A DNA stretch of 64,000 nt, taken from Bacteroidales bacterium. GTDB taxonomy: Bacteria; Bacteroidota; Bacteroidia; Bacteroidales; SZUA-534. The stretch spans positions 159,106 to 223,105 of the forward strand of contig JBJKSB010000041.1 of the NCBI GenBank assembly GCA_046704385.1, read 5' to 3'. The notes under the pieces are model-generated. The model searched no databases and was not told the DNA's origin. It saw only the letters and a list, made by a program, of their open reading frames with translations. Position numbers and translations under genes: made by a program. Positions 2 to 28,425 of the stretch are shown one piece after another. How positions within the stretch are numbered: position 1 is the first letter of the stretch; the number at the start of each line of letters is the position of its first letter.

Positions 2-280
2 ACCTGTGAATGGGCAAAATATAACATCCAGGTGAATGGCATTGGTCCTGGTTATATTGCAACTTCACAAACAGCTGCTATCCGGGAGGGAAATCATCCG
101 TTTAACGATTTGGTAATGACCCGTACTCCGGCAGGACGTTGGGGTGAGCCTGAGGATGTGGGAAATGCAGCCTTGTTTCTGGCTTCAAAAGCAGCCGACT
201 TTGTAAACGGCCATGTGCTTTATGTTGATGGTGGTATACTTGCAAACTTTGGATATGTTAAAGGTGAAAATGATATTTAA
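2..280 (+). CDS. SDR-family oxidoreductase, C-terminal fragment (gluconate 5-dehydrogenase / KduD-like); the 5' end lies outside the window
   Basis: This frame is open from the window edge (TCEWAKYNIQVNGIGPGYI...). The C-terminal SDR signature 'RWGEPEDVGNAALFLASKAADFVNGHVLYVDGG' is present. The gene lies directly upstream of uxaC-kdgK-eda. Confidence 0.8.
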   Translation, partial: TCEWAKYNIQVNGIGPGYIATSQTAAIREGNHPFNDLVMTRTPAGRWGEPEDVGNAALFLASKAADFVNGHVLYVDGGILANFGYVKGENDI

Positions 281-466: not shown

Positions 467-1867
467 ATGAAACCATTTTTAGACGATAATTTTGTATTGC
501 AAACCGAAACAGCTGAATATCTGTATCATGAGCATGCTAAAAAGATGCCGGTTATTGACTATCACAGCCATTTAATTCCGCAGCAAATAGCAGAAAATAA
601 AAAGTTTGAGAATATCACTCAGCCCTGGTTGTATGGTGACCATTATAAGTGGCGGGCTATGCGTACCAATGGGGTGAACGAACGCTATTGTACCGGTAAT
701 GCCTCCGATTGGGAGAAATTTGAAAAATGGGCCGAAACGGTTCCTCACACCTTGCGGAACCCCTTGTATCATTGGACTCACCTGGAGTTAAAAAGATATT
801 TTGGTGTGGATGAACTATTAAATACGACAACGGCCAAACGAATCTACGATCGCACATCAGCCATGCTTCAGGAGGATTCCTACAGGGTAAAAGGATTGTT
901 GAGCAAAATGAATGTGGAACTGGTATGTACTACCGACGATCCGGTTGATAACCTGGAATTTCATAAACAGATTGCCCGTGATGGTGATAAAACCCGGGTA
1001 TTGCCCACCTGGCGGCCCGATAAAGCAATGGCAGTAGATAATGCTAAATCTTATAATACGTATCTCGATTTACTATCTTCTGTTTCGGGTGTGGAAATAA
1101 AAGAATTTAAAAATCTGATTGAAGCCTTACGGATCAGGCATGATTATTTTGCAGAATTGGGATGCAAACTTTCTGACCATGGTATCGAAGTGTTTTATGC
1201 GGAAGATTATACACAAGCAGAAATCAATTCTATCTTCAATAAAATAAGAGGGGGAAAAGATTTAAATGCCAATGAGGTTCTGAAGTTTAAATCAGCCATG
1301 TTATATGAGTTTGCCATATTGGATCACGAAAAAGGATGGACACAACAATTTCATTATGGGGCATTACGGAACAATAGCACCCGGCTTTTGGCCAAGTTAG
1401 GACCCGATACAGGACTTGATTCCATTGGCGATTGGACGGTTGGTGTTGAAATGTCAAAATTTTTAAATAAACTGGATACAGAAGACAAACTGGCAAAAAC
1501 CATTTTATATAACCTTAATCCGGCTCACAACGAGATGGTAGCCACCATGATTGGGAATTTTCAGGATGGTTCGGTTCCTGGTAAAATACAGTTTGGATCA
1601 GGATGGTGGTTTTTGGATCAGAAAGACGGCATGGAAAAACAAATGAATGCTTTGTCTGCATTGGGTTTATTAAGCCGTTTTGTCGGAATGTTAACCGATT
1701 CCCGCAGCTTTTTAAGTTTCCCCAGACATGAATATTTCCGACGCATTCTTTGTAACTTGTTGGGCAATGATGTGGAGAATGGATTAATTCCTAATGACAA
1801 GGAATTACTCGGACAGATGGTGGAAAACATCAGTTATTATAATGCAAAAAATTATTTTAAGTTTTAA
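467..1867 (+). CDS. uxaC: Glucuronate isomerase (uronate isomerase)
   Basis: 466 aa. The N-terminus 'FLDDNFVLQTETAEYLYHEHAKKMPVIDYHSHL' and the motifs 'GDHYKWRAMR' and 'SGWWF' are typical of UxaC. Confidence 0.95.
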   Translation: MKPFLDDNFVLQTETAEYLYHEHAKKMPVIDYHSHLIPQQIAENKKFENITQPWLYGDHYKWRAMRTNGVNERYCTGNASDWEKFEKWAETVPHTLRNPLYHWTHLELKRYFGVDELLNTTTAKRIYDRTSAMLQEDSYRVKGLLSKMNVELVCTTDDPVDNLEFHKQIARDGDKTRVLPTWRPDKAMAVDNAKSYNTYLDLLSSVSGVEIKEFKNLIEALRIRHDYFAELGCKLSDHGIEVFYAEDYTQAEINSIFNKIRGGKDLNANEVLKFKSAMLYEFAILDHEKGWTQQFHYGALRNNSTRLLAKLGPDTGLDSIGDWTVGVEMSKFLNKLDTEDKLAKTILYNLNPAHNEMVATMIGNFQDGSVPGKIQFGSGWWFLDQKDGMEKQMNALSALGLLSRFVGMLTDSRSFLSFPRHEYFRRILCNLLGNDVENGLIPNDKELLGQMVENISYYNAKNYFKF

Positions 1868-1869
1868 AA

Positions 1870-2970
1870 ATGTCAGCATTAAACATAAAGCCATCTTCAG
1901 AGTGCACCTACGATTGTATTTCGCTGGGTGAAGTCATGTTAAGGCTGGATCCGGGAGAAGGAAGAATCCGGACAGCCCGCCAGTTCAGGGCATGGGAAGG
2001 TGGTGGAGAATACAATGTGTCCCGGGGTTTGCGTAAATGCTTTGGCAAAAAAACAGCCATTATTACGGCTTTAGCCGATAATGAAGTTGGAGCATTAATC
2101 GAAGATTTTATGCTTCAGGGAGGAGTGGACACCCAATTTGTTAAGTGGATGCCTTACGACGGATGTGGCCGGGAGGTTCGCAACGGACTGAATTTTACTG
2201 AAAGAGGTTTTGGCATACGTGGAGCCAAAGGGGTTTCGGATCGGGGAAACACAGCCGCCTCTCAGTTAAAACCAGGAGATATTGATTGGGAATATATTTT
2301 CGGAACGCTGGGCGTACGTTGGTTACATACCGGTGGAATTTTTGCTGCTCTTTCAAAGACTTCTGCACAAACCGTAATTGAGGCCGTAAAAATGGCAAAA
2401 AAATTTGGAACCATAGTTTCATATGACCTGAATTACAGGCCATCACTTTGGAAAGCCATTGGTGGCGAAGCCAAAGCCCGGGAAGTGAACCGGGAAATTG
2501 CAAACTATGTGGATGTTATGATAGGAAATGAAGAAGATTTTACGGCCAGTCTCGGATTAAAGGTTGAAGGCAACGATGAAAACCTTGCAGCTCTTGACAT
2601 ACAGGGCTACAAGAACATGATAAAATCAGCGGTAAAAGCTTTTCCTAACTTCAAAGTGATTGCAACAACATTGCGTACTGTAAAATCAGCAACTATAAAT
2701 TCCTGGGGAGCCATTTGTTATGATGGGAATGAAATTTATGAAGCAACCTACCGCGAAGACCTGGAAATTTTAGACCGGGTTGGCGGAGGCGATAGTTTCG
2801 CATCCGGGCTGATTTACGGATTTCTGGAATTTAACGATGGGGCAAAAGCTGTTGAATATGGTGCCGCCCACGGGGCCCTGGCAATGACAACTCCTGGTGA
2901 TACAACCATGGCAACATTGGCAGAAGTTGAGAAATTAGTAGGTGGAGGTAGCGCACGGGTGGACAGATAA
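1870..2970 (+). CDS. kdgK: PfkB-family sugar kinase, probably 2-dehydro-3-deoxygluconokinase
   Basis: 366 aa. It carries a PfkB signature-2-like motif 'DRVGGGDSFASGLIYG'. Its start lies 2 nt after the uxaC stop and it is followed by eda. Confidence 0.8.
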   Translation: MSALNIKPSSECTYDCISLGEVMLRLDPGEGRIRTARQFRAWEGGGEYNVSRGLRKCFGKKTAIITALADNEVGALIEDFMLQGGVDTQFVKWMPYDGCGREVRNGLNFTERGFGIRGAKGVSDRGNTAASQLKPGDIDWEYIFGTLGVRWLHTGGIFAALSKTSAQTVIEAVKMAKKFGTIVSYDLNYRPSLWKAIGGEAKAREVNREIANYVDVMIGNEEDFTASLGLKVEGNDENLAALDIQGYKNMIKSAVKAFPNFKVIATTLRTVKSATINSWGAICYDGNEIYEATYREDLEILDRVGGGDSFASGLIYGFLEFNDGAKAVEYGAAHGALAMTTPGDTTMATLAEVEKLVGGGSARVDR

Positions 2971-3111: not shown

Positions 3112-3786
3112 ATGGCACGATTTAAACGATTACACGTACTGAATACAATCACCGAAACCGGTATCGTTCCGTTATATTATAATTCGGATACCGACCTGGT
3201 AAAAAAGGTGGTAAAAGCCTGTTATTCAGGGGGAGCCCGGGTTTTTGAGTTTACCAATCGGGGAGACTTTGCCCATGAAGTATTTGCGGAAGTCAACAAA
3301 TGGTGTGCAACGGAATGTCCTGAAATGATCATGGGAGTGGGTTCGGTCGTTGATCCGGGAACAGCGGCTCTTTACATACAATTGGGGGCAAATTTCATTG
3401 TATCACCCAGTCTGAATCCCGATATGGCAAAAACATGCAATCGTAGAAAAATTGCCTGGATGCCTGGATGCGCAACACTTTCGGAAATTAACCTGGCTGA
3501 AGAGCTGGGTTGCGAAATTGTGAAGATTTTTCCCGGCAAAGAAGTGGGAGGACCGTCATTTGTCAAAGCTGTTTTGGCTCCGTGCCCATGGACCCGTATT
3601 ATGCCAAGTGGGGGCGTTTCTCCCGACAGGGAAAATCTTGAAGCATGGTTCAAAGCCGGTGTTACATGTGTAGGTTTGGGTTCTCAGCTTACACCCAAAG
3701 AAGTTATTGCCAAAGGTGATTTTAAATTTATTGAAGATAAAGTGAGAGAAGCTTTAGCCTTTGTTAAAGAATTAAAAACGAATTGA
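3112..3786 (+). CDS. eda: KDPG / 4-hydroxy-2-oxoglutarate aldolase
   Basis: 224 aa. The Schiff-base lysine context 'EIVKIFPGKEVGG' and 'MPSGGV' are typical of class I Eda aldolases. Confidence 0.85.
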   Translation: MARFKRLHVLNTITETGIVPLYYNSDTDLVKKVVKACYSGGARVFEFTNRGDFAHEVFAEVNKWCATECPEMIMGVGSVVDPGTAALYIQLGANFIVSPSLNPDMAKTCNRRKIAWMPGCATLSEINLAEELGCEIVKIFPGKEVGGPSFVKAVLAPCPWTRIMPSGGVSPDRENLEAWFKAGVTCVGLGSQLTPKEVIAKGDFKFIEDKVREALAFVKELKTN

Positions 3787-3864: not shown

Positions 3865-5037
3865 ATGAAACGAAAACTATATCTTTTAATCCTATCTGTT
3901 TTAACACTTATGTCTTGTTCAGAACACGATGAGGGCATATGGGTAAAAAATACACTCGATGAAGACTGCGTTAACGAAACAGTGAAAATTAACAAACAAC
4001 AACTTAATGCTGAAAACCAGCAAAATTTTGAAAACCTTGGGGTTTTTGATGAAGAAACACAAAAGTTTCTGCTTACTCAAAAATTGGATACTAATGAGGA
4101 TGGTGTTTCTGATGCCATGCTCTTTCAACCTAAAGTACCAGCCAATACTACCCGAAAATACAAATTGATGATAAACACTGACACCCAGAAGGTGGTGTCA
4201 AAAGTGTATTCACGTTTTGTACCTGAACGAACTGATGATTATGCCTGGGAGAACGACCGGGTTGCTTTTCGTACATACGGACCCCACGCTCAGCAACTGG
4301 CTGAAGCAAATGATCCGACAGGAACACTCTCAAGTGGATTGGATTGCTGGCTGAAACGGGTAGACTATCCGATTATCAATAAATGGTATAAAAAATATAC
4401 TTCAGGTACAGGTACTTACCATGTTGATACGGGCGAGGGACTGGATAATTATCATGTGAATTCCAGCAGAGGTTGCGGTGGAATTGGAGTCTATGAAAAT
4501 GGAAAATTATATACATCTAAAAATTTTGTGGCCTATAAAACGCGGACTAATGGACCAATTCGCACTTCGTTTAATCTTGATTATGCAAACTGGATGGCTG
4601 GAGAAAAAGCAGTGTCGGAACAAAAATTGATTAGTCTTGATCTGGGAAATAATTTAATGCGTATTGAGGAAAGGATTGCCGGAACAGATGAAATAGCGGC
4701 AGGAATAACACTACATGAAAACACGGGCACAACCTTTGAGGATACCGTAACGGGTTGTTTTTCATATTGGCAGAAACTTGACGATTCGGAATTGGGAACG
4801 GGATTGGTTATACCAGCAGCATACTATAATGGTTATACAAAAGTGGAATCTAAGGAACCTGATAAATCTCAATTGTTAGTACATCTCAAGGTAATTGATG
4901 ACAAAGTTGTTTATTATTCAGGTTTTGGATGGAAAAAAAGCGGTCAATTTGCGAACCAACAAGATTGGAATAATTATTTAAAGACTGAAGCAGTGAAAAT
5001 TAAAAATCCTTTGGAGGTAAGCATTTTAAGTAAGTAA
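3865..5037 (+). CDS. Lipoprotein of unknown function, DUF4861-like
   Basis: 390 aa. It has a lipoprotein signal 'LLILSVLTLMSC'. The motif 'DDYAWENDRVAFRTYGP' and a later 'YH...GCGGIG' recur in the paralog at 25902-27185. The family name is recalled from memory, not searched. Confidence 0.6.
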   Translation: MKRKLYLLILSVLTLMSCSEHDEGIWVKNTLDEDCVNETVKINKQQLNAENQQNFENLGVFDEETQKFLLTQKLDTNEDGVSDAMLFQPKVPANTTRKYKLMINTDTQKVVSKVYSRFVPERTDDYAWENDRVAFRTYGPHAQQLAEANDPTGTLSSGLDCWLKRVDYPIINKWYKKYTSGTGTYHVDTGEGLDNYHVNSSRGCGGIGVYENGKLYTSKNFVAYKTRTNGPIRTSFNLDYANWMAGEKAVSEQKLISLDLGNNLMRIEERIAGTDEIAAGITLHENTGTTFEDTVTGCFSYWQKLDDSELGTGLVIPAAYYNGYTKVESKEPDKSQLLVHLKVIDDKVVYYSGFGWKKSGQFANQQDWNNYLKTEAVKIKNPLEVSILSK

Positions 5038-5063: not shown

Positions 5064-6308
5064 ATGTTAATCGAAAAATATTCATTTGGAACCGGCGATC
5101 GGTTTGGTAAGGAAGGGAAAGCTCAGCTGGCTGCAATACAAGCAATTAACAAACTTGGATTTAATGTGGTTCCGGTTTGGAATAAAAGCTACCGCGAACA
5201 CAGCATTGTGAAGACAACTCAAGCAGCAGTAGCAACCGAGGCTGCGGAAGCCGTAAAGGTAAATGATTGGGATGGCAACTATTATGTAGATGCCGACCAT
5301 ATTGGCATGGCCATAGTAGATGAGTTTGTTGATTACAGCAATTTTTTCACAATTGATGTTGCCCATTTTATTGGTAAATCAACCTCTCCGTCTGAAAAAG
5401 AAGGCTTTGTAAAAAACTATTCCAAATATCTTGGAAAATTAAATTTTCCGGGTATTGATGAGCAGTTTGATGTGACGGAAGCCTTTTTAGAAAAAGTTGC
5501 CGACACGTATTTAAATGCCATAAATGAAGTAAAAACCATTTACGATCATCTTGTGGCTAAAAAGGGAGCCGATAATTTCATTCCTGAGGTGTCGATGGAT
5601 GAATGTGAAATTGCACAATCGCCTCTTGAACTGTTTTTTATTTTAGCGGAACTGAAAAGGATTGGTGTTGAGGTACAGACTATTGCACCCAAGTTCACCG
5701 GCCTATTTGCAAAAGGTGTCGATTACATTGGAAATGTGGACCAGTTTGCCAAAGAATTTGAACAGGATGTTGCTGTAACTCAATTTGCCATTGCTAAGTT
5801 GGGATTACCTGCAAGTTTAAAACTTAGTGTACATAGTGGAAGCGATAAATTTGCCATTTATCCGGCCATGAAAAAAGCCATCGAAAAATTTGATGCCGGC
5901 TTACACGTGAAAACCGCAGGAACCACCTGGCTCGAAGAGGTGATTGGATTGGCACAGGCCGATGGCGAAGGTTTGGAGATTGCTAAAGAAATATATGCCA
6001 AATCGATGGATCGTTACGATGAATTAACCGGACCCTATGCTACGGTTTTGAACATCGAAAAGGCAAAATTGCCTTCAGTTCAGGAAGTTAAAGGTTGGAA
6101 CAGTCAGCAATTTTCTGATGCGTTAACACATAACCAGTCTTGTGCCGGTTATAATTCCAGCTTCCGCCAGGTAATTCATGTGGGTTATAAAATTGCAGTT
6201 GAAATGGGAACCCGTTATTCAAGTGCTTTAGATACGTACAGAGCGGTTATTGAAAAAAATGTAACGTATAATTTATTGGAAAGGCATCTGAAATTGCTTT
6301 TTAATTGA
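5064..6308 (+). CDS. uxaE: Tagaturonate/fructuronate epimerase
   Basis: 414 aa. The motifs 'SFGTGDRFG', 'SVHSGSDKFAIYPA' and 'HVKTAGTTWLEEV' match what I recall of the Thermotoga UxaE family. Confidence 0.7.
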   Translation: MLIEKYSFGTGDRFGKEGKAQLAAIQAINKLGFNVVPVWNKSYREHSIVKTTQAAVATEAAEAVKVNDWDGNYYVDADHIGMAIVDEFVDYSNFFTIDVAHFIGKSTSPSEKEGFVKNYSKYLGKLNFPGIDEQFDVTEAFLEKVADTYLNAINEVKTIYDHLVAKKGADNFIPEVSMDECEIAQSPLELFFILAELKRIGVEVQTIAPKFTGLFAKGVDYIGNVDQFAKEFEQDVAVTQFAIAKLGLPASLKLSVHSGSDKFAIYPAMKKAIEKFDAGLHVKTAGTTWLEEVIGLAQADGEGLEIAKEIYAKSMDRYDELTGPYATVLNIEKAKLPSVQEVKGWNSQQFSDALTHNQSCAGYNSSFRQVIHVGYKIAVEMGTRYSSALDTYRAVIEKNVTYNLLERHLKLLFN

Positions 6309-6348: not shown

Positions 6349-6380
6349 AATTCCCGCTATCAGGTGGGAATTTTTATTTA
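6349..6380 (+). terminator. Rho-independent terminator of the hexuronate operon
   Basis: A 7-bp stem AATTCCC / GGGAATT with a 10-nt loop is followed by TTTTTATTT. Confidence 0.6.
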
Positions 6381-6688: not shown

Positions 6689-8125
6689 ATGGATAGTTCT
6701 TTTGATTCTATAAAAATAAAAAAGGAGTATGAGGATTATTTAGGAAAGATTTTTTTGAAGAATCTAACCCTTATTTTAAGTATTAGTATTGTTATTCTTT
6801 GCTATTATATTTATTCCGATTGGAGTGTAAGACATAATTTATTAGCCATTGAAGTCCGCATACCTCCTTTAGTGCTGATAATTACTTTACTTATTATCCA
6901 TTTATTGGCTCCACAAAAGCTTTATCGCTTAAAACATATACTTTACCTCTCAATTTACCTGACGCTTCAACTGATGATGTACGGCAAATGCCTGGTTCAT
7001 TTACATGAAGAAGCGCTTGCCCCAAGTGTTACAGGAACAATTTTAATACTTTTTTTAATTTCGTTAGATAATAAAGAAAATACTATGATAACAGCCATTA
7101 TTTATGCTGTACCCATACTTTTGTATACACTTCTGCTTATTTTAATTGGCAAACCTTCGTCTAAAGAATTCCTGGTTATGGCCGATGTTTATCCTATTGT
7201 GTTTTTGGGTTATACCGTAAACCGGATTCATAACAAACTTCGATTCAAACTTTTTGTAACAAATCATCTTTTAAATTTTGAAAAAGAAAAAACAAAAGAT
7301 TTGTATGAAGAAACATTACAAATAAATGAAGAACTGAAAAGATCAGCGACTGAAGCCATCGTAATTAAAGAAGAGATTCAGGAAAAGAATGAGGAATTAA
7401 ATATTAGCAATGCTACAAAAGACAAATTCCTTAGAATTATAGCCCATGATTTAAAAAATCCAATTCATGCAATTTGGGGAAGCTCTGATTTATTATTGAA
7501 AAAAGATAACATTAGTCCGGAAAAGCATCGGGAGTATCTGGTTTCAATAAATAAAACTATAAAACATACTTATCAGTTACTTGAAAATTTGCTTAACTGG
7601 GCCATGGCACAAAATAAATCCATTCTTTATAATCCGGTATTGCTTGATGCCAGCAAAGTAGTGGAAAATGAACTGAAAATGTTAAGAGAGTTAGCGGATA
7701 AAAAAGCGATAACTATTGAAAACAATATTCCAACAACCTTTAATGTTTATGCTGACCTTAGCATGTTTGAGACAATTATTCGAAACCTGGTTTCAAACGC
7801 TATAAAATATACTTTTAACAAAGGCCATATTCAAATTAATGCCAGAATGATTAATGAAGGAAGAAAAGACTACAGCGAAATAGTTGTTAGTGATGACGGA
7901 GTTGGAATGACCGGGGAAAAAACAGCAAAGCTGTTTAAAATAACTAAAAATATTTCGACCAAAGGTACCCAAAAAGAAGAAGGGACAGGGCTGGGACTGT
8001 TGCTTTGCAAAGAGTTTGTTGAGATTCACAAGGGAACCATTGAGGTTGAAAGTGCACCCGATAAAGGAAGTGTTTTCAAAGTTATACTGCCCTTTATTCC
8101 AACCAAATTAAAGGATTCCGTATAG
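6689..8125 (+). CDS. Membrane sensor histidine kinase (orphan; no cognate response regulator adjacent)
   Basis: 478 aa. The N-terminal ~190 aa is strongly hydrophobic with several TM segments, followed by a coiled-coil. The H-box is 'FLRIIAHDLKNP', and the HATPase_c N and G boxes are 'NLVSNAIKYT' and 'GTGLGLLLCKEFVEIHKG'. Confidence 0.85.
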   Translation: MDSSFDSIKIKKEYEDYLGKIFLKNLTLILSISIVILCYYIYSDWSVRHNLLAIEVRIPPLVLIITLLIIHLLAPQKLYRLKHILYLSIYLTLQLMMYGKCLVHLHEEALAPSVTGTILILFLISLDNKENTMITAIIYAVPILLYTLLLILIGKPSSKEFLVMADVYPIVFLGYTVNRIHNKLRFKLFVTNHLLNFEKEKTKDLYEETLQINEELKRSATEAIVIKEEIQEKNEELNISNATKDKFLRIIAHDLKNPIHAIWGSSDLLLKKDNISPEKHREYLVSINKTIKHTYQLLENLLNWAMAQNKSILYNPVLLDASKVVENELKMLRELADKKAITIENNIPTTFNVYADLSMFETIIRNLVSNAIKYTFNKGHIQINARMINEGRKDYSEIVVSDDGVGMTGEKTAKLFKITKNISTKGTQKEEGTGLGLLLCKEFVEIHKGTIEVESAPDKGSVFKVILPFIPTKLKDSV

Positions 8126-9323
8126 GTACATTTCTTAAAACCTCTTCGGTTTCAGGAAAATGTCGGTACTCTTTCCATAATTCAAACCATAAATTATTTT
8201 GGTAATATTTGGCACCAAACAGCATAGCAGGTTGAGCTACCGGCCATTTTTCCCAGTACATCACGTCGGGTTTTAACGGCCAAAAGTTCTTATTTTGAAT
8301 ATAAGGAGCCATATATTCCAACCCTTTTTTAATGCTTTTTCCGTCAGGGGTCGAAAATTGCCACAAGTTGTGGGTTGAATCCGAAAGTATTAAACAGTTC
8401 ATCACCATGGCATCGAGATTAAATAGTGAATAACCATAAGGTTTGGTACGCTCCTGTTCCAGTGGAAAACTTCCGTCGGCAGCCATCTGGTCGGGTAAAA
8501 GATGATTTATAAAACGATCACGGCAAAAGGAATAAATAGTATCGTTGCCTGTAAATTTGGCATATAATCCTACCTGCATGTTCCAACAGGTTCCGTGATT
8601 ATTGGGGTGTACCATTTCATCGTGGCCGTAAGGATGTGTTATTAACCATTGTGTAAACTCCGAAAACCACTGTTTGACTTTCTTCAGGGTTACCGGGTCA
8701 ATAGCATGATGCGATTCCAAAACCATGGTTGCTTCTACCACTTCCATTAAATGAATGGCATCGATAATACCAATGCCCCGCCCGGTATAGCGTCCTTTAA
8801 TGGCTTGTGCATAAAGCAGGTTTGGATTCATCCGGGTACTGTCGGTGATAAACCAGGCTTGTAAATGTTTTATAATGGCGTTAGCGTATTGGGTATCGTT
8901 TGTCAGCAAATAGGCTGAAGCTAAATTGCCGGTTATCTGGCTGAACCGGAGCATGGCTTCCCGATGTGAAGTGAAGTTTTTTGGATTTGATAGTCCATCC
9001 TTTCTGATATAAGGGCCACCAGGATTTTCCGGATCAGGCCACCAATAATCGCCTTCTGAATAAAAATCGTTTTGGGTTCCGGCACTGCGATCGCATGAAA
9101 AAGCAGTAATTGTCACAGGCTTTTCATGAATGTTTTTTTGAGCCAGCAATAAAACAGAATCTTTTAAAATGACGGTTGCTTTTGCGTTTAACGACTGAGA
9201 TTTCTCAACACAGGCACCCAAAATAAATGTGAGTGCAACAACTATCACGGAGTTCAGCAAAAGATATTTTTTATAAAGTTTTGTTTTGTTTAATCTGTTG
9301 AATTGAAGCAGGAGACCGGTCAT
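8094..9323 (-). CDS. Alginate-lyase-fold (PF05426-like) polysaccharide lyase family lipoprotein
   Basis: 409 aa. It has a signal or lipoprotein motif 'LTFILGAC'. 'HPNNHGTCWN' resembles the NNHSYW motif of AlgL/PL5-type lyases. The coding call is confident but the substrate is unknown. Confidence 0.55.
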   Translation of the reverse strand: MTGLLLQFNRLNKTKLYKKYLLLNSVIVVALTFILGACVEKSQSLNAKATVILKDSVLLLAQKNIHEKPVTITAFSCDRSAGTQNDFYSEGDYWWPDPENPGGPYIRKDGLSNPKNFTSHREAMLRFSQITGNLASAYLLTNDTQYANAIIKHLQAWFITDSTRMNPNLLYAQAIKGRYTGRGIGIIDAIHLMEVVEATMVLESHHAIDPVTLKKVKQWFSEFTQWLITHPYGHDEMVHPNNHGTCWNMQVGLYAKFTGNDTIYSFCRDRFINHLLPDQMAADGSFPLEQERTKPYGYSLFNLDAMVMNCLILSDSTHNLWQFSTPDGKSIKKGLEYMAPYIQNKNFWPLKPDVMYWEKWPVAQPAMLFGAKYYQNNLWFELWKEYRHFPETEEVLRNVPIRNPLIWLE

Positions 9324-22803: not shown

Positions 22804-23313
22804 ATGAAAACAGCTAATTTTATAATAAGTTTTTTAATGATTTCCCTGATATTATCGCTGGCATCATGTGAAGATGAATTTGAAAGAACCAGCACCCATA
22901 CGGATGTTTCCGGTATGGTCGGAGGAACTTACACCGGCACAATTTCTTTAAACGATGTTGCGTCCTTCGATAATGTAACTATTACTATAGAAAAGTATGG
23001 TGCTGATACCGTTCAGGCAGTATCTGTCACAATTAAATCATCGGCTTTTAATTATAATGGAGCAGGAGGCCTCGACCTGCCAGCATTTATAGATGCAGTT
23101 AGCAAAGTAATTGTAAAAAAGCCGGTATATCTTAATGTTGCCAAAGCTAACGACGGATACTCATTTTCCTGCGCCAATTCTGAAGCAATGCGACTTAATG
23201 GTCGTTTAAACGGAAACGATTTGTTTATGCAGGTTCCTATACTGGTATTTGGTGGTCAGGCTGCATTCCATGCTAATGGTGATGATTGGATGTTTTATGG
23301 AACAAAAAATTAA
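22804..23313 (+). CDS. Small PUL-encoded lipoprotein of unknown function (candidate surface glycan-binding protein)
   Basis: 169 aa with a lipoprotein signal 'LILSLASC'. It occupies the SusE/F-like position after SusD. I recognise no motif. Confidence 0.7.
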   Translation: MKTANFIISFLMISLILSLASCEDEFERTSTHTDVSGMVGGTYTGTISLNDVASFDNVTITIEKYGADTVQAVSVTIKSSAFNYNGAGGLDLPAFIDAVSKVIVKKPVYLNVAKANDGYSFSCANSEAMRLNGRLNGNDLFMQVPILVFGGQAAFHANGDDWMFYGTKN

Positions 23314-23415: not shown

Positions 23416-24282
23416 ATGAAGAAAAGTTTACTCTTAATGGCAGTACTTATTACTGCTGTAGTGTATGTTAAAGCACAGGACCCCGTAACATGGGTGGCTG
23501 ATACTTATTGTACAGACCAAGGTTTAGATGCAGATGCTATTGCTCTTCTGCCAGGAGCAACTATAGCCGTAGGAGATGTAACATTTACTGCACAGGAAGC
23601 AGATGGTGATGGCATGGGTTGGAAATATAAAACAACCACTGATCCTGATTTTGAATATAACGGCGTTACATACAAAGCAGGTCAGGTTCAGGGTCAAACC
23701 AATCCTCTTAATGGAAAACTTCTAAGAGATGGTGGCGGTTGCGCTATTGCTATGTTCACAACTACCAAAAGCGGATCTCTTGATGTAGCTTTCAAGTTTG
23801 GATACAATAAAAAATTCTGGGTTGCTGCTGTTCCCGTGGCTGATTTGGCGTTGTTGAATAAAGATGATTCTTTGGCTTGTTCCGCTTATAAGTATGAGTA
23901 TGCCACCGGGCAATACTATTGGAGCGGATATCTTGATCCAATGACCACTCCTGCAGAGTATTATGATGCAGCGGCTCCAAAATATACAGAGGCTCCTGCC
24001 GATGGCGTTTTTTACACAGGTATTACACTTGATATTAAACCAGACTATGAATATTATGTATATTTCGCAGGTTCAAAAATAATGTTGTGTGGTGTAACCT
24101 TCACTGCCAGTAGTGGTGTTTCTGTAAAAGACCATATTTCAAATGCTTCTGTAGTTTCTTCTGAATATTACACGATTATCGGACAAAAATTATCTAAACC
24201 TCTAAAAGGAGGATTAAATATTGTAGTTAATACTATGTCAGACGGTACAGTTGTGACAGAAAAAAAATTCATTAGAGAATAG
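23416..24282 (+). CDS. Secreted protein of unknown function with a T9SS-type C-terminal sorting domain
   Basis: 288 aa with the signal 'LLLMAVLITAVVYVKAQ'. The C-terminal ~45 aa 'SSEYYTIIGQKLSKPLKGGLNIVVNTMSDGTVVTEKKFI' looks like a CTD. The rest is unrecognised. Confidence 0.7.
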   Translation: MKKSLLLMAVLITAVVYVKAQDPVTWVADTYCTDQGLDADAIALLPGATIAVGDVTFTAQEADGDGMGWKYKTTTDPDFEYNGVTYKAGQVQGQTNPLNGKLLRDGGGCAIAMFTTTKSGSLDVAFKFGYNKKFWVAAVPVADLALLNKDDSLACSAYKYEYATGQYYWSGYLDPMTTPAEYYDAAAPKYTEAPADGVFYTGITLDIKPDYEYYVYFAGSKIMLCGVTFTASSGVSVKDHISNASVVSSEYYTIIGQKLSKPLKGGLNIVVNTMSDGTVVTEKKFIRE

Positions 24283-24350: not shown

Positions 24351-25757
24351 ATGAAATTCTTCTATCCAATACTTTTAATCATATTTATTTCCTGTTTTCA
24401 GGAATTTAAAACCGTTACCGACACAACGCATTCTCTTACGGATCCATGGGGGTACAGGGACTCTGTTATACAATCGATACCCCATATTGTTTTTAACGAT
24501 ACCGTTTTTAATATTGTTGATTTTGGTGCTGTGGCAGGTGAAACAATCGATAACACAAAGGAGATTAATGCTGCAATTAATGCGTGTAATCAGGCAGGGG
24601 GCGGCACCGTTTTGATTCCTGAAGGAATTTGGCTCACCGGGGCCGTGGTTTTAAAAAGTAACGTTAATCTTCACTTAAGTAAAGGATCAACTTTGCTGTT
24701 TACAACTCAAAAAGAAAAATATTTACCGGTTGTCAAAACGCGTTTCGAAGGTATGGAATGTTTAAATTATTCACCTTTAATTTATGCCTTTAATTGCCAG
24801 AACATTGCTGTAACCGGACAAGGCAAGCTTGACGGGCAGGGTCAATCGTGGTGGAATTGGAAAGGTAAATGGACGGGTTCTGTTGAAATTGAAAAGGGGA
24901 ATAACCCTAAAGAAGAGCAGGTTGATGATGTTCAAAAACTGACACAAATGGTTCAGGACAATGTCCCTATTGAAAACAGGATCTTTGGTGAAGGGCATTA
25001 TCTGCGTCCCTGTTTCATTGAGCCAAATGAGTGTAAGAATGTACTTATTGAAGGCATTACAATTGTTCAGTCACCCATGTGGGTGATTCACCCCTTACTT
25101 TCAGAAAATATTATTGTTCGCAATGTCAAAATTGAATCTTTGGGACCCAATAATGATGGTTGTGATCCGGAATGCTGTACCAATGTTTTAATCGACAGCT
25201 GCCTGTTTAATACCGGCGATGATTGTATTGCGATAAAATCCGGGCGGAACAACGATGGCAGACGCATAGGAATCCCCAGTAAAAATATTGTAATTCAGAA
25301 TTGTACAATGGTTGAAGGCCATGGAGGAGTGGTTATGGGAAGCGAAATTTCAGGAAATATAAGCTATGTTTTTGCTGAAAACTGTTATATGGACAGCCCC
25401 AACCTGGAACGTGCCGTTCGCATTAAATCAAACTCATTACGGGGCGGAACCGTGGAACATGTTTATGTGCGAAACATTAAAGTGGAAAAGGTACGCGAAG
25501 CCATTCTGAAAATCAATATGATTTATGGAAATGAGGAAGGTAATTATTTACCTGTTGTTTCTGATATTAATCTGGAAAATATCACCAGTCAAAAAAGCAA
25601 CTACGGATTTTATATTAAAGGCCTTAAAGGCAGGCCTGTTAATGGAATTAAACTGGTGGATTGCTCATTTAACAATGTAGCCGATGGCAATTTTCAGGAA
25701 AATGCAACGAACCTGGTGGTGCAAAATGTTAAAATAAACGGAGAAGATATTAAATAG
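24351..25757 (+). CDS. GH28 polygalacturonase / rhamnogalacturonase-type hydrolase
   Basis: 468 aa. The GH28 catalytic motifs 'NNDGCDPE', 'GDDCIAIKSG', 'GHGGVVMGSE' and 'RAVRIKS' are present. Confidence 0.9.
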   Translation: MKFFYPILLIIFISCFQEFKTVTDTTHSLTDPWGYRDSVIQSIPHIVFNDTVFNIVDFGAVAGETIDNTKEINAAINACNQAGGGTVLIPEGIWLTGAVVLKSNVNLHLSKGSTLLFTTQKEKYLPVVKTRFEGMECLNYSPLIYAFNCQNIAVTGQGKLDGQGQSWWNWKGKWTGSVEIEKGNNPKEEQVDDVQKLTQMVQDNVPIENRIFGEGHYLRPCFIEPNECKNVLIEGITIVQSPMWVIHPLLSENIIVRNVKIESLGPNNDGCDPECCTNVLIDSCLFNTGDDCIAIKSGRNNDGRRIGIPSKNIVIQNCTMVEGHGGVVMGSEISGNISYVFAENCYMDSPNLERAVRIKSNSLRGGTVEHVYVRNIKVEKVREAILKINMIYGNEEGNYLPVVSDINLENITSQKSNYGFYIKGLKGRPVNGIKLVDCSFNNVADGNFQENATNLVVQNVKINGEDIK

Positions 25758-25760
25758 GCA

Positions 25761-25870
25761 AACCTTTGGATTCCGGAGGTTGAATCAAGAGAGCGCTTTC
25801 CCGTTCAGCTTGTCGCTTGCGCCAAAGCTTCTGTGCTGGAGCACTACATGGAGCTTCAATTGGATCAAAC
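25761..25870. repeat. GC-rich REP-like hairpin element in the GH28/DUF4861 spacer
   Basis: This segment is locally GC-rich and has nested inverted repeats. Examples are CCAAAGCTT...GAGCTTCAATTGG at 25822-25863 and an inner GTGCT-GG-AGCAC. The GTG-initiated ORF start at 25833 lies inside it. Confidence 0.4.
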
Positions 25871-25901
25871 TTTTCATAGTAATGTATTAATTATTACAAC
25901 C

Positions 25902-27185
25902 GTGAAACTGATATTTAGAATTATTGTTTGGGCATTAATAATGAACCTGTCATTTTTAATGGCTTGTTATATAACACCCGAAAACAAGATTCTGGTAAAA
26001 GTGCAAAACACGATCAATATTGAGCGTAACGGTGAATTAGTTGCAGTAAATATAAGTACAATAAAGAATTTACTTAAAGATGTTGATATTACTAAGCTGA
26101 TTGTAGAAACAGACACGGTGATACCTTTTCAATTTACTGACACCAATAATGATAAAATGCCGGATCAACTCATTTTTGAGATAAACCTAAAGGCCGGCGA
26201 ACAAAAAATGGTCACCATTCGAAGTTTAGCGGATCAGGAACAATTGCCTGAATTCACCAAACGTACACAGGCGGAATTATCAATAAAAAATGGAGGAACC
26301 TGGGAGTGGGTCACTAAAAAGAATGGAAATGAACAATATGAATACAAAGGAGGAACTTTTAAAAACATAAATTACCTTAAAGTTCCCGAACAACATACCG
26401 ATCATTCATTCTATATCCGATATGAAGGACCCGGGTGGGAATCCGACAAGCTAGGTTATCGCCTTTACCTTGACTGGCGCAATGCGGTTGATTTATTTGG
26501 TAAAAAGGTTGATACCATGGTTTTACAAGGTGTAGGTCAGGATGGTTTTGAATCGTATCATTCTGAATGTCCCTGGGGAATGGATATCCTGAAAGTCGGA
26601 AATTCTCTGGGTATTGGCACCATTGCTTTCTGGGATGGACAGGAAGCCCAGCGTATTGCAAAAACAGACAGTGTGGAGTGTTCCATCGTTGAAAATGGAG
26701 TGCTGCAATCTTTGATTCAGACAAATTATTATGGATGGGATTATGATAAAGAATCAAAGACGGATTTAACATCAAAAATAAGTATCAATGCGGGTAGTAG
26801 ATTAACATTTCAGCAAATATTTTTGAGCAGCCCTGTTGAAAATATTTGCACTGGCATTGTAAAATTAAAGGGGGGCAGGCTTTATTCCACCAAAACCTCA
26901 GATAAAAATTGGGGTTATATTGCCTCTTTTGGTGATCAAAGCCTGAACAACGATAACATGGGGATGGTCATCTTTTATAAAAACAGGCAACGGATCAAAA
27001 TTACAAACGACACCTTAAGTCATGTAATTGTCTTAAAACCGGAGGGGAAAAGTCTTAGTTATTTTTATGCAGCTACCTGGGAACAGGATCCTGATCATAT
27101 TGCCGATAGTAATCAGTTTTTAAACTATGTGAATACAACGTTAATGCGATTGAACAACCCGGTTAGTATTGATGTTGATCTTTAA
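25902..27185 (+). CDS. DUF4861-like protein, second paralog (probable lipoprotein)
   Basis: The track ORF starts at 25833 (GTG) inside a hairpin element. More plausible starts are GTG 25902 (VKLIFRIIVWALIMNLSFLMAC is a lipoprotein-like signal) or ATG 25941. The motifs 'YEGPGWESDKLGYRLYLDWRNAVDLFGKK' and 'SYH...GNSLGIG' parallel the 3865-5037 protein. Confidence 0.6.
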   Translation: MKLIFRIIVWALIMNLSFLMACYITPENKILVKVQNTINIERNGELVAVNISTIKNLLKDVDITKLIVETDTVIPFQFTDTNNDKMPDQLIFEINLKAGEQKMVTIRSLADQEQLPEFTKRTQAELSIKNGGTWEWVTKKNGNEQYEYKGGTFKNINYLKVPEQHTDHSFYIRYEGPGWESDKLGYRLYLDWRNAVDLFGKKVDTMVLQGVGQDGFESYHSECPWGMDILKVGNSLGIGTIAFWDGQEAQRIAKTDSVECSIVENGVLQSLIQTNYYGWDYDKESKTDLTSKISINAGSRLTFQQIFLSSPVENICTGIVKLKGGRLYSTKTSDKNWGYIASFGDQSLNNDNMGMVIFYKNRQRIKITNDTLSHVIVLKPEGKSLSYFYAATWEQDPDHIADSNQFLNYVNTTLMRLNNPVSIDVDL

Positions 27186-27210: not shown

Positions 27211-28425
27211 ATGAAGTATTTTTTAGGAATAGCCATAACATTTATACTTTTTGCGGCTTGTAATAGTGAAGTAAATAAATCTGATAAACAAGAAGGAACA
27301 TTTAATTCAGGCATTGATTATGCACAGTGGATGGGAAACACGGTCATTAATAAATACCCTGATTTATGGAGTATTGAAGAGAGGAACCAAGCTAAGTGGG
27401 ATTATACTTATGGCTTAATAAGTATGGCAATGCTTCAGCTTTATAACGAAACACAAAACATGGAATATTATAACTATGCCAAAAGGTATGCCGATAGTCT
27501 GATCGATGATAAAGGCATAATTAAAGGATACAAGAAATCAGATTACAATCTCGATAAATTGAATTCGGGTAAAATTCTATTTACACTGTACAAACAAACT
27601 CAGGATACCAGGTATAAAACCGCGATGGACTCGTTAAGAAATCAACTGACAACCCAGCCGCGCACTGAAATTGGAGGCTTTTGGCATAAAAAACGTTATC
27701 CGCACCAGATGTGGCTCGATGGAGTGTATATGGCAGCCCCTTTTTATGCAGAGTACGCCAGGGAGTTTAATCAGCCGGAATGTTTTAATGAAATTGCCGA
27801 TTGGATCATTAATGTTGAGTCCGTTACGCGTGATAGTGCTACCGGACTTTTATATCATGGTTGGGATGAATCCAGGGAGCAAGCCTGGGCTAATAAAGAA
27901 ACAGGTTGTTCGCCAAATTTCTGGGGACGCGGGATGGGTTGGTATGCCATGGCGTTGGTCGATGTGCTTGATTATTTTCCCTCAGATAATCCAAAATACG
28001 ATACCCTAAAACAAATAATTCAGCGTACGGCCCGGGCAATAGTGAAATTTCAGGAGGAAAAATCAGGGTGTTGGTACCAGGTCCTCGACAAAGGAGACCA
28101 GGAAGGCAATTACCTTGAAGGATCAGCAACTGCAATGTTTTCGTATTTTCTTTTAAAGGGAATCAATAAAGGATATCTCGACAAAAAATTTTATCAGCCA
28201 AATGCCCTTAAAGCTTACCAGGGAATGGTGGATAACCTGATAAAAACCGATAAAGATTCAATGTTAGTTATTTCACCGGTATGTGCTGTTGCCGGATTAG
28301 GCGGTAATCCGTACCGCGATGGAAGTTACCAGTATTATATAACTACTGAAAAACGTGATAATGATCCCAAAGCAGTAGGACCTTTTATTTTAGCAGGAAT
28401 CGAATATAGAAAATTAACTAAATAA
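27211..28425 (+). CDS. GH105 unsaturated rhamnogalacturonyl/galacturonyl hydrolase (YteR/YesR-like; Glyco_hydro_88 fold)
   Basis: 404 aa with a lipoprotein signal 'ILFAAC'. The motif 'WHKKRYPHQMWLDGVYMAAPFYAEYA' and 'FWGRGMGW' are typical of GH105/GH88. The pectin context favours GH105. Confidence 0.8.
   Translation: MKYFLGIAITFILFAACNSEVNKSDKQEGTFNSGIDYAQWMGNTVINKYPDLWSIEERNQAKWDYTYGLISMAMLQLYNETQNMEYYNYAKRYADSLIDDKGIIKGYKKSDYNLDKLNSGKILFTLYKQTQDTRYKTAMDSLRNQLTTQPRTEIGGFWHKKRYPHQMWLDGVYMAAPFYAEYAREFNQPECFNEIADWIINVESVTRDSATGLLYHGWDESREQAWANKETGCSPNFWGRGMGWYAMALVDVLDYFPSDNPKYDTLKQIIQRTARAIVKFQEEKSGCWYQVLDKGDQEGNYLEGSATAMFSYFLLKGINKGYLDKKFYQPNALKAYQGMVDNLIKTDKDSMLVISPVCAVAGLGGNPYRDGSYQYYITTEKRDNDPKAVGPFILAGIEYRKLTK

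What the first reader, a model, noticed from the sequence alone, without database searches (positions are those of the whole stretch)
3865..5037. Exported DUF4861-like lipoprotein embedded in an otherwise cytoplasmic hexuronate operon
The order is uxaC, kdgK, eda, this gene, uxaE, with short spacers (2-140 nt) and one terminator after uxaE. All four neighbours are cytoplasmic enzymes. This 390-aa protein carries a clear lipoprotein signal (LTLMSC), so it acts outside the cytoplasm. As far as I know the family has no assigned function. A paralog sits between GH28 and GH105 in the PUL 21 kb downstream. Tight co-location with uronate catabolism twice in one window points to an uncharacterised step in pectin or unsaturated-uronate processing.
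Basis: partly seen in the sequence, partly recalled or inferred. Interest (0 to 1): 0.55.

Follow-up and report, generated by a model that had tools for sequence, protein, structure and literature searches.

The report
Exported BT3233-family protein in uronate operon
This gene encodes an exported protein of a widespread but biochemically unexplained Bacteroidota family that always accompanies the enzymes processing the keto-sugar acid released from pectin and animal glycosaminoglycans, so it probably marks an undescribed periplasmic step of that pathway.

Summary
ORF 3865-5037 encodes a 390-aa DUF4861 protein with a lipoprotein signal, between eda and uxaE. A paralog lies between GH28 and GH105.

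The family is not entirely unassigned. The protein scores above the NCBIfam cut-off for the BT3233 family. The B. thetaiotaomicron BT3233 mutant grows poorly on chondroitin sulfate, hyaluronan and heparin, but no biochemical function is published.

The operon is not purely cytoplasmic. Just upstream of the window it also encodes an MFS permease, the genome's only KduI, an exported GH88/105 hydrolase and KduD.

- In 401 sampled Bacteroidota genomes, all 79 with a DUF4861 match also have KduI, and 72 have a strong GH88/105.
- A uronate or pectin gene lies within 3 kb in 75 of 80 and 48 of 58 loci.
- Thirty of 36 long relatives are fusions to GH88/105.
- Export signals are conserved; lipidation is not.
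- The predicted fold is a small beta domain plus a galactose-mutarotase-like supersandwich, with invariant E129, R136, D160, K164 and D194.

Best reading: a periplasmic partner of unsaturated uronyl hydrolases that handles their monosaccharide product before import. The chemistry is inferred, not shown.

This scan noted the same family earlier on other genomes. It is a typical member of a known, unsolved family; interest is moderate.

The parts
2..280 (+). 3' end of the KduD-type SDR gene; the gene starts upstream of the window
   Evidence: The window starts at L005 coordinate 14107. The SDR ORF L005:13526-14386 matches adh_short_C2, E 1e-58.
467..1867 (+). uxaC (glucuronate isomerase)
   Evidence: PF02614, E 1e-207, full length.
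1870..2970 (+). PfkB-family sugar kinase, probable kdgK
   Evidence: PF00294, E 5e-22. Best NCBIfam hits are KDG/KDGal kinases, all below their cut-offs.
3112..3786 (+). eda (KDPG/KHG aldolase)
   Evidence: PF01081, E 2e-35.
3865..5037 (+). DUF4861 / BT3233-family exported protein (the finding), 390 aa
   Evidence: PF16153, E 5e-83. NF058564 387.5 bits, above the 320 cut-off. AF2 model pLDDT 88.3, pTM 0.87.
3865..3918 (+). Signal peptide with lipobox (M1-C18)
   Evidence: Read from the sequence. N-terminal export signals are conserved in the family; about half have a lipobox Cys and the rest look SPI-type.
3934..4179 (+). N-terminal small beta domain (aa 24-105) with a D75-x-N-x-D79-G-x-x-D83 loop
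   Evidence: Strands in the AF2 model. D75 and D79 are invariant and D83 is at least 90% conserved in A1. The domain is absent from the short paralogs. Calcium binding is an inference from the motif only.
4198..5034 (+). Galactose-mutarotase-like beta-supersandwich (aa 112-390) carrying the invariant residues E129, R136, D160, K164 and D194, plus W128, Y138, Y185, H186 and W356
   Evidence: VIA-align Z 11-16 to supersandwich domains. Foldseek E 1e-7 to GH38 C-terminal domains. Conservation measured over 93 members.
5064..6308 (+). uxaE (tagaturonate/fructuronate epimerase family)
   Evidence: PF16257, E 4e-60.
6349..6372 (+). Terminator-like hairpin closing the operon
   Evidence: 10-bp stem and T-run. 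No intergenic + strand hairpin was found between the upstream MFS gene and uxaC. These are consensus scans only.
24351..25757 (+). GH28 in the pectin PUL
   Evidence: PF00295, E 1.5e-28.
25902..27185 (+). DUF4861 paralog b; the ORF is open from 25833 and the likely start is GTG 25902
   Evidence: PF16153, E 4e-96. Only 110 bits to NF058564, below the cut-off, so it belongs to a different subfamily. A lipoprotein signal follows the GTG.
27211..28425 (+). GH88/GH105-family unsaturated uronyl hydrolase (lipoprotein), 26 nt after paralog b
   Evidence: PF07470, E 6e-116. N-terminus ends FILFAAC.

Best explanation
The gene encodes an orthologue of B. thetaiotaomicron BT3233. It is an exported protein, here lipid-anchored and most likely facing the periplasm. 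It belongs to the unsaturated-uronate branch shared by pectin and glycosaminoglycan breakdown.

Proposed route:
1. Periplasmic GH88/GH105 hydrolases hydrate the 4,5-unsaturated uronate at the non-reducing end of lyase products. [quoted passage not shown]
2. DKI is imported, here probably by the MFS permease that heads the operon.
3. In the cytoplasm it is converted by KduI, KduD, KdgK and Eda.
4. I propose that the DUF4861 protein acts between the hydrolase and the permease, on the monosaccharide product or its ring-closed hemiketal precursor.

Preferred mechanism: the conserved acidic, basic and His/Tyr pocket of the mutarotase-like supersandwich binds the product and catalyses ring opening or interconversion of its forms. 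This would speed flux and limit build-up of a reactive dicarbonyl.

Shown here: family membership, export signal, fold class, gene linkage, phyletic nesting within KduI-positive genomes, and fusion to GH88/GH105.

Inferred: periplasmic orientation, the ligand and the chemistry.
For: Membership:
- NF058564 equivalog, 387.5 bits against a 320 cut-off; PF16153 full length.

Genetics in the type organism:
- The BT3233 transposon mutant is defective on chondroitin sulfate (-1.6), hyaluronan (-0.7) and heparin (-2.2) (PMC8121099). By my own knowledge of the pathway, what these share downstream is the GH88 step followed by DKI.

Own genome:
- Each of the three DUF4861 genes sits in a cluster with one of the three strong GH88/105 genes. 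The spacings are 26 nt, 142 nt, and four genes in the same operon.
- The only KduI gene lies in the same operon as this copy.

Across genomes:
- kduI-kduD-DUF4861 is the dominant order in 80 mostly flavobacterial loci.
- A uronate or pectin gene lies within 3 kb in 75 of 80 and 48 of 58 loci.
- In Lutibacter the gene lies 2-9 nt from its neighbours in uxuB-uxuA-kduI-kduD-DUF4861-uxaC-MFS.

Phyletic pattern in one 401-genome sample:
- 79 of 79 DUF4861-positive genomes are KduI-positive, against 41 of 322 of the rest.
- 72 of 79 have GH88/105 at E<=1e-20. Six of the other seven have weaker GH88-like hits, several of them next to DUF4861.

Fusions:
- 30 of 36 long relatives are fused to GH88/105, in both domain orders, and all examined start with signal-like N-termini. 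Four more came from a second query.

Export and transport:
- Export signals are conserved across subtypes. Lipidation is not, which argues for a periplasmic rather than a surface role.
- Permease genes (MFS, GntP) often lie directly beside the gene.

Structure:
- Mutarotase-like supersandwich.
- E129, R136, D160, K164 and D194 are identical in 93 of 93 diverse members. Y185 and H186 are at least 96% conserved.
Against: - No biochemical data exist for any member.
- The fold is also used by many non-catalytic domains (GH38 C-terminal domains, GH65/GH15 N-domains, YidC P1) at equal or higher Z.
- There is no sequence-level link to aldose 1-epimerase: hhalign probability 1%. I could not inspect whether the invariant residues form one pocket, because no coordinates are returned.
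- By textbook knowledge, the rearrangement after GH88/GH105 hydration is considered spontaneous, so an enzyme may not be needed.
- Several paralogs, each beside its own GH105, could instead indicate partner-specific or oligosaccharide-specific roles.
- Own paralog c lacks several otherwise conserved residues.
- About a third of KduI-positive sampled genomes (41 of 120) lack DUF4861, so the step is dispensable or replaced there.
- The residues after the lipobox Cys here (SEHDEG) are acidic, so surface exposure cannot be excluded.
Confidence: 0.5

Rival explanations
1. It is a non-catalytic accessory module, CBM-like or a structural subunit. It binds unsaturated oligosaccharides, or docks onto the (alpha/alpha)6 barrel of GH88/GH105, and so improves substrate capture or stability. 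It would be the detached equivalent of the beta-sandwich domains that flank catalytic toroids in many GH and PL families.
For: - Frequent fusion to GH88/105 in both orders, as is typical of accessory modules.
- Short paralogs lie immediately beside GH105 in 8 of 8 flavobacterial pectin PULs.
- The best structural matches are mostly non-catalytic supersandwich domains.
- InterPro files the family under putative carbohydrate-binding mutarotase-like domains (PMC8121099).
- The AF2 model of a natural fusion has pTM 0.83, which suggests a defined packing of the two domains.
Against: - The BT3233-type copy usually sits with kduI-kduD, with no GH88/105 within 10 kb (1 of 80 loci).
- It would have to serve GH88 and GH105 enzymes that are only distantly related.
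- Invariant charged residues (E129, R136, D160, K164, D194) fit a fixed small acidic ligand or catalysis better than a variable glycan.
- The fusion model does not superpose on any solved toroid-plus-sandwich architecture; rmsd exceeds 20 A.
- The single-gene phenotype in B. thetaiotaomicron is strong.
Confidence: 0.22
2. It is a periplasmic ligand-binding protein that captures DKI, or a related keto-uronate, and hands it to an inner-membrane permease (MFS, GntP, TRAP or an orphan EIIC). It would be a transport accessory without catalysis.
For: - Permease genes directly flank DUF4861 in several loci, and beside own paralog c.
- The operon here starts with an MFS permease.
- Earlier scan notes report a DUF4861-EIIC permease fusion and a copy beside a TRAP transporter. 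I did not verify these.
- The B. thetaiotaomicron control genome has an EIIC-GAT hit, although 0 of 401 sampled genomes do.
Against: - By general knowledge, MFS and GntP carriers are not known to use binding proteins.
- An outer-membrane-anchored lipoprotein is poorly placed to dock on an inner-membrane carrier.
- No permease fusion appeared in two searches for long relatives, whereas 34 GH88/105 fusions did.
Confidence: 0.15
3. It is itself a new carbohydrate-active enzyme, a lyase or hydrolase acting on oligouronides. In that case it would be analogous to oligogalacturonate lyase in enterobacterial kdu clusters, or to supersandwich-based lyases such as PL4 and PL26.
For: - VIA-align Z 15.1 (285 residues, rmsd 3.9) to the PL26 exo-rhamnogalacturonan lyase across the whole model.
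- Z 12.9 to PL4, and Z 11-12.6 to GH174 and OpgD/G, where supersandwich-containing enzymes are catalytic.
- Conserved Arg, Lys, His and Tyr residues are typical of uronate lyases.
- Fusions to pectinesterase and BNR_4 domains exist.
Against: - The BT3233 mutant is affected on three glycosaminoglycans with different linkages. That fits a common downstream step, not a linkage-specific depolymerase.
- The Z scores are no higher than to non-catalytic domains.
- No residue-level match to PL4 or PL26 catalytic residues could be tested.
Confidence: 0.1

Closest known systems
BT3233 of Bacteroides thetaiotaomicron (DUF4861; NCBIfam NF058564 'BT3233 family polysaccharide utilization protein')
   Same: The window protein scores above the equivalog cut-off (387.5 against 320 bits) over the whole model. 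It has the same Pfam family and carries an export signal. It is linked to the pathway that the BT3233 phenotype implicates.
   Different: The window protein comes from a different lineage; its nearest database relatives are at most 60% identical. It lies in a hexuronate operon between eda and uxaE. I could not retrieve the genomic context of BT3233 itself. No phenotype is known for this organism.
KdgF (cupin that catalyses ring opening of 4,5-unsaturated monouronates; Hobbs et al. 2016, as cited in PMC12838403)
   Same: This is a candidate functional analogue. It is a small accessory protein encoded in kdu clusters, and it accelerates a step long considered spontaneous, between depolymerisation and KduI.
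   Different: The fold is unrelated (cupin against supersandwich): no cupin hit for this protein and no Cupin_2 gene in any of the three DUF4861 clusters. By my own knowledge, KdgF is cytoplasmic in enterobacteria, whereas DUF4861 is exported. An earlier scan note reports both in one locus, so they need not be redundant (untested).
Galactose mutarotase / aldose 1-epimerase (PF01263)
   Same: The fold class is shared: VIA-align Z 11.5-12.9 to three mutarotase-like structures (3mwx, 3ty1, 3os7). General acid-base ring opening of a hemiacetal is the kind of chemistry proposed here.
   Different: There is no detectable sequence relationship: hhalign probability 1% against the genome's own epimerase. 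Catalytic residue equivalence was not established. DUF4861 has an extra N-terminal beta domain and is exported.
Non-catalytic beta-supersandwich domains of GH38, GH65/GH15 and the PL8/PL15/PL21 type enzymes
   Same: These are the best structural matches: Foldseek E 1e-7 and Z 13-16 for GH38 C-terminal regions, and Z 12-13.5 for GH65/GH15 N-domains. Like them, DUF4861 is often covalently joined to an (alpha/alpha)6 catalytic barrel.
   Different: DUF4861 is usually a stand-alone secreted protein with its own signal peptide. The modelled fusion does not reproduce the domain arrangement of any solved enzyme. The invariant polar residues suggest a ligand site of its own.

Membership tests
DUF4861 (Pfam PF16153) | Full-length match to the family HMM above the gathering score | tested here: met
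   279.6 bits against a 22.3 cut-off; residues 27-385 cover profile positions 1-380.
BT3233 family (NCBIfam NF058564, equivalog) | Whole-protein score at or above the curated cut-off of 320 bits | tested here: met
   387.5 bits over profile positions 1-354. Paralog b scores only 110 bits and is not a member of this subfamily.
BT3233 family (NCBIfam NF058564, equivalog) | Required for growth on glycosaminoglycans that yield unsaturated uronates (the phenotype that named the family) | not testable with these tools
   The phenotype is known only for B. thetaiotaomicron (PMC8121099). This organism would need a knockout.
BT3233 family (NCBIfam NF058564, equivalog) | Exported protein (N-terminal signal peptide) | tested here: met
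   MKRK-hydrophobic-LMSC read from the sequence. Signals are conserved in homologs. No dedicated predictor was run.
Galactose mutarotase-like superfamily (fold level) | Beta-supersandwich fold | tested here: met
   AF2 pLDDT 88.3. VIA-align Z 11.5-16.2 to many supersandwich domains, including three mutarotase-like proteins.
Aldose 1-epimerase (PF01263) | Sequence homology and the His/His/Glu catalytic set | tested here: not met
   No Pfam hit. hhalign probability 1% against the genome's own epimerase. Catalytic residue superposition could not be examined.
KdgF (cupin) | Cupin fold and Cupin_2 signature | tested here: not met
   No cupin hit. The model is a supersandwich.
Polysaccharide lyases with a supersandwich (PL26, PL4) | Equivalent catalytic residues and lyase activity | tested here: inconclusive
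   Fold similarity Z 15.1 (5xq3) and Z 12.9 (1nkg). No residue-level alignment is available, and activity is not testable here.
GH88/GH105 unsaturated uronyl hydrolases | (alpha/alpha)6 barrel, PF07470 | tested here: not met
   No PF07470 hit in this protein. It is a partner of, and often fused to, that family.

The most novel reading that the evidence does not exclude
DUF4861 is a new enzyme class: an exported, mutarotase-fold catalyst that completes the GH88/GH105 reaction. It would open the ring of the C5 hemiketal intermediate, or interconvert the cyclic and hydrated forms of DKI. A step assumed to be spontaneous would then become an enzymatic, periplasmic one. It would be the Bacteroidota counterpart of KdgF in an unrelated fold, and it would explain the BT3233 phenotype on all glycosaminoglycans.
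Probability: 0.27. Interest if true: 0.75.

Novelty: new member of a known kind. Interest (0 to 1): 0.5.

Why it matters
Unsaturated uronates are the common currency of pectin, ulvan and host glycosaminoglycan breakdown by gut and marine Bacteroidota. The published pathway goes straight from GH88/GH105 to cytoplasmic KduI, with no periplasmic factor and no defined importer.

A conserved exported protein nests strictly within KduI-positive genomes. It is repeatedly fused to GH88/GH105, and it is needed by B. thetaiotaomicron on three glycosaminoglycans. Together these say that a step is missing from the model.

The comparative constraints assembled here narrow the question to a few cheap assays:
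- the ligand is probably the shared monosaccharide product;
- the compartment is periplasmic;
- candidate residues are E129, R136, D160, K164, Y185, H186 and D194.

The window itself adds nothing exceptional. It is a typical instance of the family.

Tried and rejected
- **PDB by sequence.** No hit for the single protein. With the profile, only spurious picornavirus VP1 matches at E>0.1.
- **ESM Atlas look-alikes outside PF16153.** Best score 0.79, unnamed clusters, no lead.
- **hhalign of the family profile against the genome's own aldose 1-epimerase.** Probability 1%.
- **'DUF4861 + GH88/105 is a split version of a known toroid-plus-sandwich enzyme'.** The modelled natural fusion (pTM 0.83) matched GH105 structures for one domain only (4ce7, Z 46). 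Chains spanning both domains had rmsd above 20 A. Not supported, but not excluded.
- **DUF4861-EIIC permease fusion reported by an earlier scan note.** Not recovered in two searches for longer relatives. EIIC-GAT was not found in the 401 sampled genomes, though the B. thetaiotaomicron control has it. Left untested.
- **KdgF complementarity.** Cupin_2 genes exist in the genome but none in the three clusters. Inconclusive.
- **Surface-export signal after the lipobox Cys.** No conserved acidic motif across lipidated members.
- **BT3233 genomic context and cofitness.** No supplementary files are held for the paper, and no route to the named genome remained.
- **Sequencing runs.** None was listed for this stretch.
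- **Family f7, which has GH88/105 and KduI but no DUF4861 hit.** I checked whether its long GH105 hides a DUF4861 domain. It carries a weak DUF4350 match instead.
Full report
**1. Observation.** The window holds an ATG-started ORF at 3865-5037 (+) of 390 aa. It matches Pfam DUF4861 end to end (E 5e-83). The spacers are 2, 141, 78 and 26 nt. A 10-bp hairpin with a T-run follows at 6349-6372, after uxaE. The N-terminus (MKRK, a hydrophobic run, then LMSC with Cys18) reads as a lipoprotein signal. The paralog at 25833-27185 is DUF4861 too (E 4e-96) and lies between GH28 and a GH88/105-family gene. Its probable start is the in-frame GTG at 25902, which gives a classical lipoprotein signal.

**2. 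What lies just outside the window.** The window is contig C41:159106-223105 of a 5.8-Mb genome. Directly upstream, on the same strand, lie an MFS permease, the only KduI gene of the genome, a GH88/105 gene with a signal peptide, and a KduD-type SDR whose 3' end is window 2-280. No intergenic + strand terminator-like site was found between the permease and uxaC (consensus scan only).

The unit therefore reads MFS-kduI-GH88/105-kduD-uxaC-kdgK-eda-DUF4861-uxaE. It contains a second exported protein and a membrane carrier, so 'otherwise cytoplasmic' is not accurate.

The genome has a third DUF4861 copy. It is 292 aa, lacks the N-terminal domain, has a lipobox, and sits 142 nt after a GH88 and just before a GntP permease. 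The genome has three strong GH88/105 genes, and each lies in a cluster with one of the three DUF4861 genes.

**3. Is the family unassigned?** Not entirely. NCBIfam NF058564, 'BT3233 family polysaccharide utilization protein' (an equivalog model), scores 387.5 bits against a cut-off of 320. Paralog b scores 110 bits and is a different subfamily.

Liu et al. 2021 (PMC8121099) found BT3233 important for growth of B. thetaiotaomicron on chondroitin sulfate (-1.6), hyaluronan (-0.7) and heparin (-2.2). They confirmed the defect with an isolated mutant and stated that the precise function is unknown. Only three papers in the searchable library mention DUF4861 and two mention BT3233, and none gives a biochemical function. 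Recent papers on KduI/DhuD clusters and on hyaluronan catabolism do not mention the family.

**4. Gene linkage across genomes.** I labelled neighbours by phmmer, using this genome's own proteins as queries.

- In 80 loci from named genomes, mostly Flavobacteriaceae, the dominant order is kduI-kduD-DUF4861, often followed by uxaC or kdgK-eda.
- I also fetched 60 twenty-kb loci around hits in an even sample of the phylum. There, both the BT3233 type and the paralog-b type sit beside kduI/kduD, uxaC/uxaE, GH88/105 and kdgK/eda.
- A uronate or pectin gene lies within 3 kb in 75 of 80 and 48 of 58 loci.
- In Lutibacter holmesii the gene lies 2-9 nt from its neighbours in uxuB-uxuA-kduI-kduD-DUF4861-uxaC-MFS.
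- Short forms of about 320-350 aa without the N-domain lie directly beside GH105 in pectin PULs in 8 of 8 flavobacterial genomes checked.

An exported protein embedded among cytoplasmic hexuronate enzymes is therefore the norm for this family, not a peculiarity of this window.

**5. Phyletic pattern.** The same 401-genome sample was searched with four models.

- 79 genomes have a DUF4861 match (NF058564, E<=1e-3), and 20 of them score over the equivalog cut-off.
- All 79 are among the 120 KduI-positive genomes.
- 72 of the 79 are among the 110 genomes with GH88/105 at E<=1e-20.
- Of the other seven, six have weak GH88-like hits, several next to DUF4861. One complete genome has none.
- KduI without DUF4861 occurs in 41 genomes, so the protein is not obligatory for the pathway.

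Related genomes are not independent, so I give counts and no test.

**6. Fusions.** Among proteins longer than 683 aa related to the query, 30 of 36 also carry PF07470 (GH88/105). Both domain orders occur, and all examined begin with signal-like N-termini. A second search with a type-b query gave four more, all GH88/105 fusions. Other fusions are DUF4861::pectinesterase (745 aa), BNR_4-GH88-DUF4861 and DUF4861-GH88-DUF4350. Six proteins have a 550-850-aa N-terminal region without Pfam hits ahead of the supersandwich.

**7. Export.** Of 138 family ORFs, 68 matched a strict lipobox pattern. Most of the rest show a basic and hydrophobic N-terminus of the SPI type; the Flavobacterium johnsoniae group ends ...FSQ before NK. 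Export is conserved and lipidation is not. No conserved acidic motif follows the Cys. This favours a periplasmic role that does not depend on the anchor. The GH88/105 partners here are exported too.

**8. Structure.** AF2 with a 39-sequence alignment gave pLDDT 88.3 and pTM 0.87. The model has a small beta domain (about residues 24-105) and a large beta-supersandwich (about 112-390).

| Search | Match | Score |
|---|---|---|
| Foldseek | GH38 C-terminal regions | E 1e-7 |
| VIA-align | Ams1 / GH38 | Z 16.2 |
| VIA-align | PL26 exo-RG lyase, 285 residues | Z 15.1 |
| VIA-align | GH65/GH15 N-domains | Z 12-13.5 |
| VIA-align | YidC P1 | Z 13 |
| VIA-align | Mutarotase-like proteins | Z 11.5-12.9 |
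| VIA-align | PL4 | Z 12.9 |
| VIA-align | GH174 | Z 12.6 |
| VIA-align | OpgG/D | Z 11.5 |

The fold class is clear, but it does not discriminate catalytic from non-catalytic use. There is no sequence link to solved structures or to aldose 1-epimerase.

Over 93 diverse members, E129, R136, D160, K164, G192, D194, G203 and G205 are identical in all. W128, Y138, Y185, H186 and W356 are identical in at least 96%. Own paralog c departs at several of these positions.

In the BT3233 type, the N-domain carries a D-x-N-x-D-G-x-x-D loop (residues 75-83; D75 and D79 invariant). It looks like a calcium site, but this is inference only.

A natural GH105-DUF4861 fusion modelled at pLDDT 86.5 and pTM 0.83. 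Its GH105 half matches 4ce7 at Z 46. No solved two-domain enzyme superposes over both halves.

**9. Interpretation.** By pathway knowledge, chondroitin sulfate, hyaluronan, heparin and lyase-cut pectin share one intermediate: the 4,5-unsaturated uronate at the non-reducing end. GH88/GH105 remove it by hydration, giving DKI/DHU, the substrate of KduI and then KduD (pathway as summarised in PMC12838403).

Several lines place DUF4861 at or just after the hydrolase step, in the periplasm:

- it is exported like the hydrolases;
- it is fused to them in dozens of lineages;
- it is nested within KduI-positive genomes;
- it sits in kduI-kduD operons even where no hydrolase gene is near;
- it is needed on all three glycosaminoglycans.

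Because the BT3233-type copy is attached to the central operon rather than to a particular PUL, the common monosaccharide product is a more economical ligand than the varied oligosaccharides. The invariant acidic, basic and His/Tyr set fits a small acidic sugar. The mutarotase-like fold suggests acid-base ring opening or interconversion of hemiketal and hydrate forms. This would be a role like that of KdgF, in a different fold and compartment.

I put 0.5 on the general product-handling model and about 0.27 on the specific catalytic version. The rivals are a non-catalytic partner of GH88/105 (0.22), a binding protein that feeds a permease (0.15) and a new lyase or hydrolase (0.10).

**10. Earlier scan notes.** The scan had flagged the same family on other genomes: kduI-kduD-DUF4861 lipoproteins, GH105 fusions, a copy next to a TRAP transporter, a fusion to an orphan EIIC permease, and a copy beside kdgF. 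I reproduced the GH105 fusions independently. I could not reproduce the EIIC fusion.

**11. Verdict.** However, the protein belongs to an already named family with a published mutant phenotype, and its placement is typical for that family. Its value is as one more clean example of an unsolved, testable gap in the unsaturated-uronate pathway.

Noticed in passing
L005:1547-9236 (contig C41:146546-154235, upstream of the window): The same-strand cluster ahead of the MFS-kduI genes encodes a LacI regulator, an SDR, a second PfkB kinase, a LarA-like (Lar_N) protein, a GFO/IDH/MocA oxidoreductase and a full 6-phosphogluconate dehydrogenase. An earlier scan note on another genome also reported gnd embedded in a uronate locus. 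This may be an alternative aldonate or uronate branch.
   Followed up: no
window 22804-23313 and 23416-24282: Two ORFs (169 and 288 aa) directly after SusD in the pectin PUL have no Pfam or NCBIfam hit. They may be surface glycan-binding proteins.
   Followed up: no
L006:4681-6351 and L006:6370-8094 (contig C106): The third DUF4861 cluster contains a 556-aa lipoprotein with no Pfam hit. It also contains a 574-aa GH88 with an N-terminal extension of about 220 aa that has no Pfam match, behind a TonB-dependent receptor and a T9SS-tailed protein. This is a candidate undescribed uronan locus.
   Followed up: no
L132:8359-10596(-) and L149:8361-10601(-): A DUF4861 domain is fused to a C-terminal pectinesterase (745 aa), next to GH105 and SusC, in one genus of the phylum sample.
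   Followed up: partly
P0126, P0130, P0144, P0146, P0151, P0155: Six long relatives carry 550-850 N-terminal residues without any Pfam hit in front of a DUF4861 supersandwich that lacks the N-domain. The N-terminal regions may be unrecognised catalytic domains.
   Followed up: no
L182:9654-11636 (G063) and P0123/P0129: Family f7 of the sample has GH88/105 and KduI but no DUF4861 hit (0 of 21). Its GH105 genes lie in open frames of about 630-720 aa. The one I examined (660 aa) carries a weak C-terminal DUF4350 match. The same domain follows GH88 in DUF4861-GH88-DUF4350 triple fusions. DUF4350 may be an alternative accessory module.
   Followed up: partly
window 8094-9323 (-): A 409-aa protein with an Alginate_lyase (PF05426) domain, E 1e-83, is convergent with and overlaps the end of a histidine kinase gene. 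It lies next to a 1091-aa tricorn-type protease and is not part of any PUL.
   Followed up: no
control genomes: EIIC-GAT (PF03611) was found in none of the 401 sampled Bacteroidota genomes, but it is present in the B. thetaiotaomicron control. This is consistent with earlier scan notes of an orphan GatC-like permease in gut Bacteroidales kdu loci.
   Followed up: partly
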